Shown here in pieces: positions 40,201-41,864 of a stretch of 64,000 nucleotides of DNA. The stretch is taken from assembly GCF_056712565.1 (NCBI RefSeq), contig NZ_CM160072.1. The stretch is one strand, 5' to 3'. The position numbers are program-made. The stretch's first letter is position 1. Every line of letters begins with the position of its first letter.

Positions 40201-41864
40201 CGACTTGGTGGCGATCCTCAAAACGCTGGGGGCAGGGCGAGCGCAACTGCGTAAGTTAATTGTCGGTCAGTGGTTGATGGTGCTGGTACTTTCAGCCATT
40301 ACCGGTGGGGTGATAGGTCTGTTGTTCGAAAACGTGTTGATGGTGCTGCTCAAACCCGTGCTACCTGCCGCTTTACCTCCTGCCAGCCTCTGGCCGTGGC
40401 TGTGGGCGCTCGGCACCATGACAGTCATCTCGCTGCTGGTGGGGCTGCGACCATACCGCCTGTTGTTGGCAACGCAGCCTTTACGCGTGTTACGTAATGA
40501 TGTGGTTGCAAACGTCTGGCCGCTGAAGTTTTATCTGCCGATTGTCAGTGTGGTGGTTGTGCTACTGCTCGCCGGACTGATGGGCGGCAGTATGCTGCTC
40601 TGGGCGGTGCTGGCGGGCGCGGTAGTACTGGCTTTGCTGTGCGGTGTGCTGGGCTGGATGCTGCTGAATGTACTTCGCCGCATGACGCTGAAATCGCTAC
40701 CTCTGCGCCTGGCGGTTAGCCGCCTGTTACGTCAGCCGTGGTCAACGTTAAGCCAGCTTTCGGCATTTTCGCTCTCCTTTATGCTGCTGGCACTGTTGTT
40801 GGTGTTGCGTGGCGATCTGCTCGATCGCTGGCAACAGCAGCTACCGCCAGAAAGCCCGAACTACTTTTTAATCAACATCGCCACAGAACAGGTTACGCCG
40901 CTAAAAGCGTTTCTCGCGGAACATCAGATAGTCCCGGAATCGTTTTATCCGGTAGTGCGGGCGCGGTTGACGGCGATTAACGACAAGCCGACAGAAGGCA
41001 ATGGAGATGAGGCGCTCAACCGCGAGCTGAATCTCACTTGGCAAAATGCGCGGCCTGATCATAACCCGATCGTCGCCGGTAACTGGCCGCCAAAAGCCGA
41101 TGAAGTGTCGATGGAAGAGGGGCTGGCGAAACGCTTAAACGTTGCCCTCGGCGATACCGTGACTTTTATGGGCGATACCCAGGAGTTCCGCGCTAAAGTG
41201 ACCAGCCTGCGCAAAGTGGACTGGGAAAGTCTGCGGCCTAATTTCTATTTTATTTTCCCGGAAGGGGCATTAGACGGGCAACCGCAGAGCTGGCTTACCA
41301 GTTTCCGCTGGGAGAATGGCAACGGCATGTTGACGCAACTCAACCGCCAGTTCCCGACCATTAGCCTGTTAGACATTGGCGCGATTTTAAAACAGGTCGG
41401 TCAGGTGCTGGAGCAGGTAAGTCGGGCGCTGGAAGTGATGGTGGTGCTGGTCACCGCCTGCGGCATGTTGCTGTTGCTGGCGCAGGTGCAGGTGGGAATG
41501 CGTCAGCGTCATCAGGAGCTGGTGGTGTGGCGCACACTTGGTGCGGGGAAAAAACTGCTGCGCACGACATTGTGGTGTGAGTTCGCCATGCTCGGGTTTG
41601 TATCCGGCCTGGTGGCCGCAATTGGTGCGGAAACGGCACTGGCGGTACTGCAATCGAAAGTGTTTGATTTCCCGTGGGAGCCAGACTGGCGATTGTGGAT
41701 TGTTCTGCCGTGCAGCGGTGCGCTACTGCTGTCGCTTTGCGGCGGCTGGCTGGGTGCGCGACTGCTTAAGGGTAAGGCGCTGTTCAGGCAGTTTGCGGGG
41801 TGATGTGATAAAGCCGTTTATTTCTACCTGGTAGCATGAACAGCGTGCACAGAATCCCCCATCA

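What the first reader, a model, noticed from the sequence alone, without database searches (positions are those of the whole stretch)
41804..41861. The RhsD element is absent: ybbP and selU are separated by only 58 bp
In K-12 the rhsD element and its associated small ORFs (ybbC, ylbH, ybbD and others) lie between ybbP and selU (mnmH/ybbB). Here the ybbP stop and the selU stop are 58 bp apart, with no Rhs core, toxin tip or immunity remnants. This looks like a clean unoccupied Rhs site, and it also shows that the strain is not K-12.
Basis: partly seen in the sequence, partly recalled or inferred. Interest (0 to 1): 0.3.

Follow-up and report, generated by a model that had tools for sequence, protein, structure and literature searches.

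The report
Rhs-free ybbP–mnmH junction, a recombination scar
In this E. coli type-strain-like genome, ybbP and selU/mnmH really do sit 58 bp apart with no RhsD element, which is a known and common polymorphism, but the 58 bp are a rare stitched-together scar rather than a pristine empty site.

Summary
ybbP ends at 41803, mnmH/selU ends at 41862, and the gap is 58 bp. K-12 has 7,301 bp there carrying rhsD, ybbC, ylbH, ybbD, ylbI and ylbG. The window contains no trace of Rhs.

Absence of rhsD here is ordinary. Only 2,853 of 5,426 complete E. coli genomes have rhsD at this site, none of 80 outgroup loci has it, and Jackson et al. 2009 already catalogued it as a variable Rhs position.

The site is multi-allelic:
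- rhsD island: 2,853 genomes.
- Short REP-only or REP plus dinQ-like gaps: about 1,772 genomes.
- Hcp–Tle1 phospholipase (Hcp-ET2) plus DUF2931 island: 574 genomes.
- This exact 58-bp junction: 127 genomes.

"Clean unoccupied site" is only partly right. Bases 41804–41834 are the left edge of the Hcp-ET2 island. They stop inside that island's terminator hairpin, so the rest of the hairpin is missing. Bases 41835–41861 are the sequence that follows the last REP in the REP allele, which E. albertii shares. The gap is therefore a derived join of two non-homologous alleles, most likely made by illegitimate recombination, and it removed the ybbP terminator. Which allele was the recipient is unresolved.

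Interest is low.

The parts
39389..41803 (+). ybbP (putative ABC transporter permease), with stop codon TGA at 41801-41803
   Evidence: NCBIfam NF041854, 1461 bits. Annotated as ybbP in ATCC 11775.
41804..41834 (+). Segment L (TGTGATAAAGCCGTTTATTTCTACCTGGTAG). It is identical to the left flank of the Hcp-ET2/DUF2931 island allele. It holds the ascending arm (41808-41821), the apical part, and the first 4 nt of the descending arm of that allele's ybbP terminator hairpin. The rest of the descending arm and the U-tail are missing.
   Evidence: Alignment A1. This left flank occurs in exactly 701 genomes, which is 574 Hcp-island genomes plus 127 window-type genomes. It is the only island-derived DNA in the window (blastn E 1.6e-9). 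The intact hairpin folds at -25.5 kcal/mol with z = -5.6 in E. coli, and the E. whittamii version has a compensatory stem change.
41834..41835 (.). The join (GGTAG|CATGAAC). At most 1 nt (G) is shared between the two parental alleles.
   Evidence: Comparison of alignments A1 and A2 and the sequences.
41835..41861 (+). Segment R (CATGAACAGCGTGCACAGAATCCCCCA). This is the right-hand core of the REP-type allele and lies immediately 3' of the last REP palindrome in that allele.
   Evidence: Identical in E. coli REP-state strains (L004, L104, L105, L018) and conserved in E. albertii with 4 differences. In the 711-bp allele the dinQ-like module is inserted inside it.
41862..42956 (-). mnmH/selU (tRNA 2-selenouridine synthase), the 364-aa form ending ...EWVKAQ*. 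The Hcp-island form is 368 aa.
   Evidence: NCBIfam NF008749, 757 bits. Hcp-island strains all have the 368-aa form.
41931..41982 (-). Patch of four synonymous SNPs in the mnmH 3' end (41931, 41973, 41975, 41982), tightly linked to the junction.
   Evidence: Only 129 of 5,426 genomes are >=99% identical here. They are taken to be the 127 junction genomes (overlap inferred from the near-equal counts, not enumerated) plus two REP-state genomes, 2A and 09A19CPO009. 09A19CPO009 carries all four SNPs and 2A carries only the CTG codon. Codon CTG at 41973-41975 matches E. albertii and E. whittamii, whereas the other E. coli sequences compared have TTA.

Best explanation
The 58-bp interval is a derived null allele of a multi-allelic intergenic hotspot between the convergent genes ybbP and mnmH. 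RhsD was probably never in this lineage. The gap arose by one illegitimate (non-homologous) join. On one side is the left flank of the Hcp-ET2/DUF2931 type VI effector-immunity island allele, broken inside the descending arm of the ybbP terminator hairpin. On the other side is the right core of the REP-type allele, broken at the 3' end of the last REP palindrome. The most plausible route is recombination between an Hcp-allele chromosome and a REP-allele chromosome, anchored by homology in one flanking gene and closed illegitimately at the other end. The product lacks the Hcp island, the REP cluster and the ybbP terminator. It has no positive function of its own, and its likely consequences are read-through between the convergent genes and the absence of DUF2931 immunity genes at this locus. 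Shown: the composite structure, the truncated hairpin, the allele census, and the derived and restricted distribution. Inferred: the mechanism, the direction of exchange, and the consequences.
For: - Composite structure: 41804-41834 is identical to the Hcp-allele left flank and 41835-41861 is identical to the REP-allele right core. The two alleles share no other similarity between the ybbP stop and the mnmH end.
- The L flank occurs in exactly 701 genomes, which is 574 with the Hcp island plus 127 with this junction. It is never found with any other content.
- In E. coli, E. whittamii and Escherichia sp. MOD1-EC7003 the L flank always carries a complete hairpin. It is strongly stable (z = -5.6 and -4.9), has a U-rich tail, and shows a compensatory stem change. 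The window keeps only the ascending arm, has no significant fold (z = -1.3 and -0.2) and no terminator-like site.
- Both parental alleles are older and more widespread. The REP allele is shared with E. albertii, and the Hcp allele with E. whittamii and another Escherichia species. The junction is rare (127 of 5,426) and invariant.
- Close relatives of each side exist. ybbP 3' (about 900 bp) matches Hcp strain CU42ET-1 with 2 mismatches, and ybbP 3' (1,218 bp) matches REP strain 2A with 1 mismatch. The 883 bp from segment R into mnmH are identical to REP strain 09A19CPO009, including the linked 4-SNP patch.
- The window's exact MnmH protein occurs with both 58-bp and 240-bp gaps.
- No Rhs lies downstream of ybbP in 80 other species, and Jackson 2009 dates this Rhs position to after the split from the group of pathogenic strains lacking the Clade I expansion.
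Against: - No genome carrying an intermediate arrangement was found, so the event is reconstructed and not observed.
- Recipient and donor cannot be told apart. Both flanks have near-identical relatives among REP-state genomes, the left flank also matches an Hcp-state genome, and 50-kb backbone comparisons were uniformly mosaic at 0.3-2%.
- Microhomology at the join is at most 1 nt, which gives no mechanistic signature.
- Loss of terminator function and read-through are predicted from folding only.
- The census relies on megablast coverage classes and not on per-genome inspection, and about 100 genomes fall outside the four classes.
Confidence: 0.72

Rival explanations
1. Pristine ancestral empty site. 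The 58 bp would be the original ybbP-mnmH intergenic region, into which RhsD, the Hcp island or REPs were later inserted in other lineages.
For: The convergent ybbP/mnmH adjacency is ancient, and several genera have gaps of only about 30-130 bp (Trabulsiella, Atlantibacter, Buttiauxella). Rhs at this site is derived.
Against: - The Hcp island would have had to bring in 14+ nt perfectly complementary to pre-existing host sequence to make a hairpin that is conserved, with compensation, across three species.
- It would also have had to delete segment R and rewrite the mnmH C-terminus at the same time.
- The REP allele shares nothing with segment L.
- The 58-bp form is absent from all outgroups sampled and present in only 2.3% of E. 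coli.
Confidence: 0.07
2. Simple intrachromosomal deletion in an unsampled progenitor. That progenitor would have carried the Hcp-ET2 island with a REP-type right end (ybbP, hairpin, Hcp-ET2, DUF2931, REP, segment R, 364-aa mnmH). One deletion from the hairpin to the last REP would have removed the island.
For: - It needs only one chromosome and one event.
- Both breakpoints lie at palindromes (hairpin, REP). From general knowledge, not tested here, palindromes are favoured endpoints for deletion.
- Island decay is seen elsewhere: Hcp-ET2 pseudogenes in A20 and 382634_2f, an internally deleted Hcp-ET2 in Escherichia sp. MOD1-EC7003, and DUF2931 copy number of 1-4.
Against: All inspected Hcp-island genomes, including E. 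whittamii, have the same right boundary inside mnmH (368-aa form), with no REP and no segment R. No genome with the L flank has any other content.
Confidence: 0.18
3. Assembly or sequencing artefact that collapses a larger region.
For: None.
Against: The identical junction is found in 127 complete genomes and in multiple independent NCBI and ENA assemblies.
Confidence: 0.01

Closest known systems
Rhs 'position 3' (rhsD) presence/absence polymorphism between ybbA/ybbP and ybbB (selU/mnmH), from Jackson et al. 2009, BMC Genomics 10:584 (PMC2935791)
   Same: It is the same chromosomal site. The window is an Rhs-absent state of a locus already catalogued as variably occupied, and the paper infers that this Rhs position arose after the split from the group of pathogenic strains lacking the Clade I rhs expansion.
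   Different: The read sections of the paper do not describe the sequence of the empty junction, the alternative cargos at the site, or the chimeric scar.
Hcp-ET2 (Hcp fused to a DUF2235/Tle1 phospholipase), a T6SS effector described by Ma et al. 2017 and summarised in PMC6730261
   Same: The alternative occupant of this site in 574 E. coli genomes and in E. whittamii has an Hcp (PF05638) plus Tle1-like catalytic domain (PF09994) architecture, followed by DUF2931 genes. The window retains 31 bp of that island's left flank.
   Different: The window has none of the island's genes. I did not test whether the island protein is an ortholog of the published ETEC PE321 protein. DUF2931 as the cognate immunity is inferred from gene order only.
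REP/BIME-containing intergenic regions between convergent genes
   Same: The ancestral-looking Rhs-free allele in E. coli and E. albertii is a cluster of REP palindromes. The window's right 27 bp are the unique sequence that follows the last REP.
   Different: The window has lost every REP copy at this site (one search finds no REP-like motif near 41.8 kb).
Homology-facilitated illegitimate recombination and palindrome-associated deletion (general bacterial mechanisms, recalled from the literature and not tested here)
   Same: The join links non-homologous sequences with at most 1 nt of microhomology. It is flanked by long near-identical homology in ybbP and mnmH, and both breakpoints sit at hairpin-forming sequences.
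   Different: No experimental or intermediate evidence exists. The mechanism is inferred from the product alone.

Membership tests
Rhs element (RhsD, position 3) | Large Rhs core ORF with YD repeats | tested here: not met
   tblastn of K-12 RhsD against the whole window gives a best E of 3.6, which is chance. No ORF fits in the 58 bp.
Rhs element (RhsD, position 3) | C-terminal tip, immunity gene or orphan fragments (ybbC, ylbH, ybbD, ylbI, ylbG) | tested here: not met
   tblastn and blastn of the K-12 island against the window give no significant hits.
Rhs element (RhsD, position 3) | Chromosomal position between ybbP and selU/mnmH | tested here: met
   The window has the same flanking genes as K-12. 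The site is the right one but is not occupied by Rhs.
Hcp-ET2 / DUF2931 island allele | Hcp-Tle1 fusion gene and DUF2931 genes | tested here: not met
   No hits in the window. The genes are present in comparators L005-L009, L067 and L101-L103.
Hcp-ET2 / DUF2931 island allele | Left flank with a complete terminator hairpin directly after the ybbP stop | tested here: inconclusive
   The flank is present and identical for 31 nt, but the descending arm and the U-tail are missing. It is a remnant and not an intact member.
Hcp-ET2 / DUF2931 island allele | Right boundary inside mnmH (368-aa MnmH ending ...TYACGY) | tested here: not met
   The window's MnmH is the 364-aa form ending ...KAQ.
REP-type (Rhs-free) allele | REP palindromes after the ybbP stop (TGATGACAGG..., GCCGGATAAGGCG...) | tested here: not met
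   There is no REP-like motif in 41.5-42.2 kb, and the left flank differs completely.
REP-type (Rhs-free) allele | Right core CATGAACAGCGTGCACAGAATCCCCCA next to the mnmH stop | tested here: met
   It matches L004, L104 and L105 at 27 of 27 positions and is conserved in E. albertii.
Illegitimate-recombination or deletion scar | Junction of two sequences that are non-contiguous or non-homologous in all other genomes, truncating a structural element, with a derived and restricted distribution | tested here: met
   The junction is in 127 of 5,426 genomes and is invariant, and both parental alleles are present in outgroups.
Illegitimate-recombination or deletion scar | Direct observation of the progenitor, or a phylogenetic polarity that places the scar as derived within a clade | not tested
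   No whole-genome phylogeny could be built with these tools, and the 50-kb backbone comparisons were uninformative.

The most novel reading that the evidence does not exclude
The ybbP-mnmH gap would be a genus-wide cassette-exchange hotspot dedicated to interbacterial-antagonism and toxin cargo: RhsD, Hcp-ET2 with DUF2931 immunity arrays, and a dinQ-like type I toxin. Its alleles would be swapped through the flanking genes. The 58-bp allele would be a rare null allele, created by illegitimate recombination at palindromes, that stripped the type-strain lineage of both the Hcp-ET2 weapon and the DUF2931 immunity. That would leave the lineage open to attack by Hcp-ET2-armed lineages such as ST131.
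Probability: 0.3. Interest if true: 0.3.

Novelty: already known. Interest (0 to 1): 0.12.

Why it matters
It matters little on its own. The result confirms that the window is not K-12 and that rhsD is absent, which is a documented polymorphism found in about half of E. coli genomes. The modest added value has three parts:
- A warning that a short "empty" junction can be a secondary scar and not the ancestral attachment site. That matters when such junctions are used to infer insertion sites or polarity.
- A census showing that this one intergenic gap alternates between two different T6SS-associated toxin islands, a small type I toxin module, and REP clusters.
- A simple 58-bp lineage marker for the ATCC 11775-like group.

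Tried and rejected
- Function in the 58 bp: Rfam scan of 41500-42200 at E <= 1 gave no hits. The promoter and terminator scan found none. Folding of both strands was not significant. So there is no evidence that the 58 bp encode an RNA element.
- Recipient versus donor: I compared about 50 kb of backbone with the closest Hcp-state (CU42ET-1) and REP-state (09A19CPO009, 2A) genomes. All were mosaic at 0.3-2% divergence, so this was uninformative.
- New mutation near the breakpoint: I considered that the 4-SNP patch in mnmH was made by mutagenic repair at the break. I rejected this because the patch exists in a REP-state genome without the junction (L105), and its CTG codon matches other Escherichia species.
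- Simple REP excision from the 240-bp allele: rejected because segment L has no similarity to anything in that allele.
- Literature: a search for rhsD plus ybbP found no paper describing this junction.
- Exact-allele context look-ups for YbbP and MnmH found no progenitor arrangement, only 58-bp and 240-bp gaps.
- I did not survey the rest of the ATCC 11775 genome for other Rhs loci. Only the 64-kb window was tested, and it was negative.

Full report
**1. Observation**

The + strand ORF 39389-41803 is YbbP (NF041854, 1461 bits). The − strand ORF 41862-42956 is MnmH/SelU (NF008749, 757 bits). The sequence between them, 41804-41861, is 58 bp.

The region is 100% identical over 1.1 kb to E. coli ATCC 11775 / DSM 30083, where the two genes are annotated the same way. 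In K-12 MG1655 the two stop codons are 7,301 bp apart, with rhsD, ybbC, ylbH, ybbD, ylbI and ylbG in between.

No Rhs core, tip or companion ORF is detectable anywhere in the 64-kb window by tblastn or blastn.

**2. How unusual is it**

The site is multi-allelic. The table gives the census of 5,426 complete E. coli genomes.

| Allele at the ybbP–mnmH site | Genomes | Source |
|---|---|---|
| K-12-type left flank plus rhsD start | 2,853 | |
| Short gaps under about 1 kb, other than this junction | about 1,772 (1,899 − 127) | |
| Hcp–Tle1 plus DUF2931 island | 574 | |
| This exact 58-bp junction | 127 | |

- The short gaps are of two kinds: REP palindromes only (about 130-240 bp), or REPs plus a module of about 560 bp annotated as a DinQ-like type I toxin (711 bp in total).
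- The island of about 4 kb encodes a 667-aa Hcp fused to a Tle1-like phospholipase domain (PF05638 plus PF09994), followed by one to four DUF2931 genes. It includes ST131 strains. This architecture is the published Hcp-ET2 class of T6SS effectors.

Absence of rhsD is therefore commonplace, at about 47% of genomes. Jackson et al. 2009 list ybbA–ybbB as Rhs "position 3". They show its presence or absence across strains and infer that it arose after the split from the group of pathogenic strains that lack the Clade I rhs expansion.

Outgroups agree with this. Among 80 loci from other species found with YbbP, none has Rhs downstream of ybbP. The convergent ybbP/mnmH adjacency is widespread, with gaps of only about 30-130 bp in Trabulsiella, Atlantibacter and Buttiauxella.

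**3. What the 58 bp actually are**

All alleles diverge immediately after the ybbP stop codon. They converge again only a few bases before the mnmH stop, or inside mnmH's last codons for the Hcp allele, which yields a 368-aa MnmH instead of 364 aa.

*Left part.* Bases 41804-41834 (TGTGATAAAGCCGTTTATTTCTACCTGGTAG) are identical to the left flank of the Hcp-island allele. In that allele these bases form the ascending half of a long hairpin: ATAAAGCCGTTTAT, an apical stem-loop, then ATAAACGGCTTTAT, followed by a U-rich tail.

- The hairpin folds at −25.5 kcal/mol with z = −5.6.
- E. whittamii and Escherichia sp. MOD1-EC7003 carry the same flank with a complete hairpin. The E. whittamii stem has a compensatory change, GCCGTCTAT paired with ATAGACGGC.
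- The window stops four bases into the descending arm. It has no significant fold and no terminator-like site.

*Right part.* Bases 41835-41861 (CATGAACAGCGTGCACAGAATCCCCCA) are identical to the sequence that follows the last REP in REP-type alleles. They are conserved in E. albertii with four differences.

*The join.* The join GGTAG|CATGAAC shares at most one base between the two parents.

*Exclusivity of the left flank.* It occurs in exactly 701 genomes, which is the 574 with the island plus the 127 with this junction, and in no other context.

**4. Polarity and mechanism**

Both parental alleles are older than the junction. The REP allele is shared with E. albertii, and the Hcp allele with E. 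whittamii and another Escherichia species. The junction itself is rare, invariant, and leaves half of a conserved structural element unpaired. It is therefore derived.

An "insertion into a pristine 58-bp site" model is implausible. The island would have had to arrive with 14+ nt perfectly complementary to host sequence, and at the same time delete the right core and rewrite the mnmH C-terminus.

The local haplotypes fit a chimera.
- The last ~900 bp of ybbP match the Hcp-state strain CU42ET-1 with 2 mismatches.
- The last 1,218 bp of ybbP match the REP-state strain 2A with 1 mismatch.
- The 883 bp from the right core into mnmH are identical to the REP-state strain 09A19CPO009.

A cluster of four synonymous SNPs at 41931-41982 is linked to the junction. 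Only 129 genomes are ≥99% identical there, taken to be the 127 junction genomes (overlap inferred from the counts, not enumerated) plus the two REP-state strains. 09A19CPO009 carries all four SNPs and 2A carries only the CTG codon. The patch therefore predates the join and marks the right-hand parent.

I conclude that the gap is an illegitimate join between the two alleles. The most plausible route is recombination anchored by homology in one flanking gene and closed non-homologously at a hairpin and a REP. This step is inferred.

Which allele was the recipient is unresolved, because 50-kb backbone comparisons were uniformly mosaic. A single-chromosome deletion in an unsampled progenitor, carrying an Hcp island with a REP-type right end, remains possible. 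However, no such genome was seen among those inspected.

**5. Consequences (inferred)**

The allele lacks the Hcp-ET2 and DUF2931 genes, the REP cluster and the ybbP terminator. I expect transcriptional read-through between the convergent genes and no DUF2931 immunity at this locus. Neither was tested.

**6. Verdict**

The underlying polymorphism is already known, and the scar is a small, ordinary structural detail. Interest is low.

Noticed in passing
window 21582-22940: A 1.36-kb two-gene cassette lies between ushA and ybaK. ORF 22118-22918 (-) is 266 aa with DUF6896 (PF21837, E 9.5e-14). It overlaps ORF 21618-22121 (-), 167 aa with no Pfam hit. Neither has a PADLOC hit. The cassette is absent from three B2 comparators and is present in 774 of 5,426 complete E. 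coli genomes. It could be a small accessory module, for example toxin/immunity or defence, but its function is unknown.
   Followed up: partly
window 31526-32542 (-), and the cueR-ybbJ interval 30815-33370: A YadA-anchor (trimeric autotransporter-like) gene carries a nonsense mutation at 32098 (CAA to TAA, Q149*). It is intact at 338 aa in strain PU-1 (L010). The cueR-ybbJ interval is itself variable. The window and CU42ET-1 have the YadA-like gene plus small ORFs there. Strains A20, 2A and 09A19CPO009 have a different 407-aa hypothetical gene.
   Followed up: partly
L003 1005-1715 and L022 12413-13130 (not in the window): A 711-bp allele of the same ybbP-mnmH gap carries a 27-aa ORF annotated as a DinQ-like type I toxin. 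It is inserted inside the REP-allele right core and bracketed by direct repeats of about 27 nt of a terminator-like hairpin (AAACC[A/G]ACTGTCATGTCGGTTTTTTTA). It also occurs in Escherichia sp. E1V33.
   Followed up: no
L005-L009, L021, L067, L101-L103 (not in the window): The Hcp-ET2 island shows several signs of turnover. DUF2931 copy number ranges from 1 to 4. Hcp-ET2 is a pseudogene in strains A20 and 382634_2f. It is internally deleted in Escherichia sp. MOD1-EC7003. One strain has an IS1 insertion. A 61%-identical Hcp-ET2 plus DUF2931 pair lies about 4.4 kb downstream of ybbP in Pseudocitrobacter faecalis.
   Followed up: partly
window 41038 and 41048 (ybbP): Two ybbP SNPs differ from nearly all comparators. 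Position 41038 is shared only with REP-state strain 2A, and 41048 is shared with none of them. These are further lineage markers flanking the junction.
   Followed up: no
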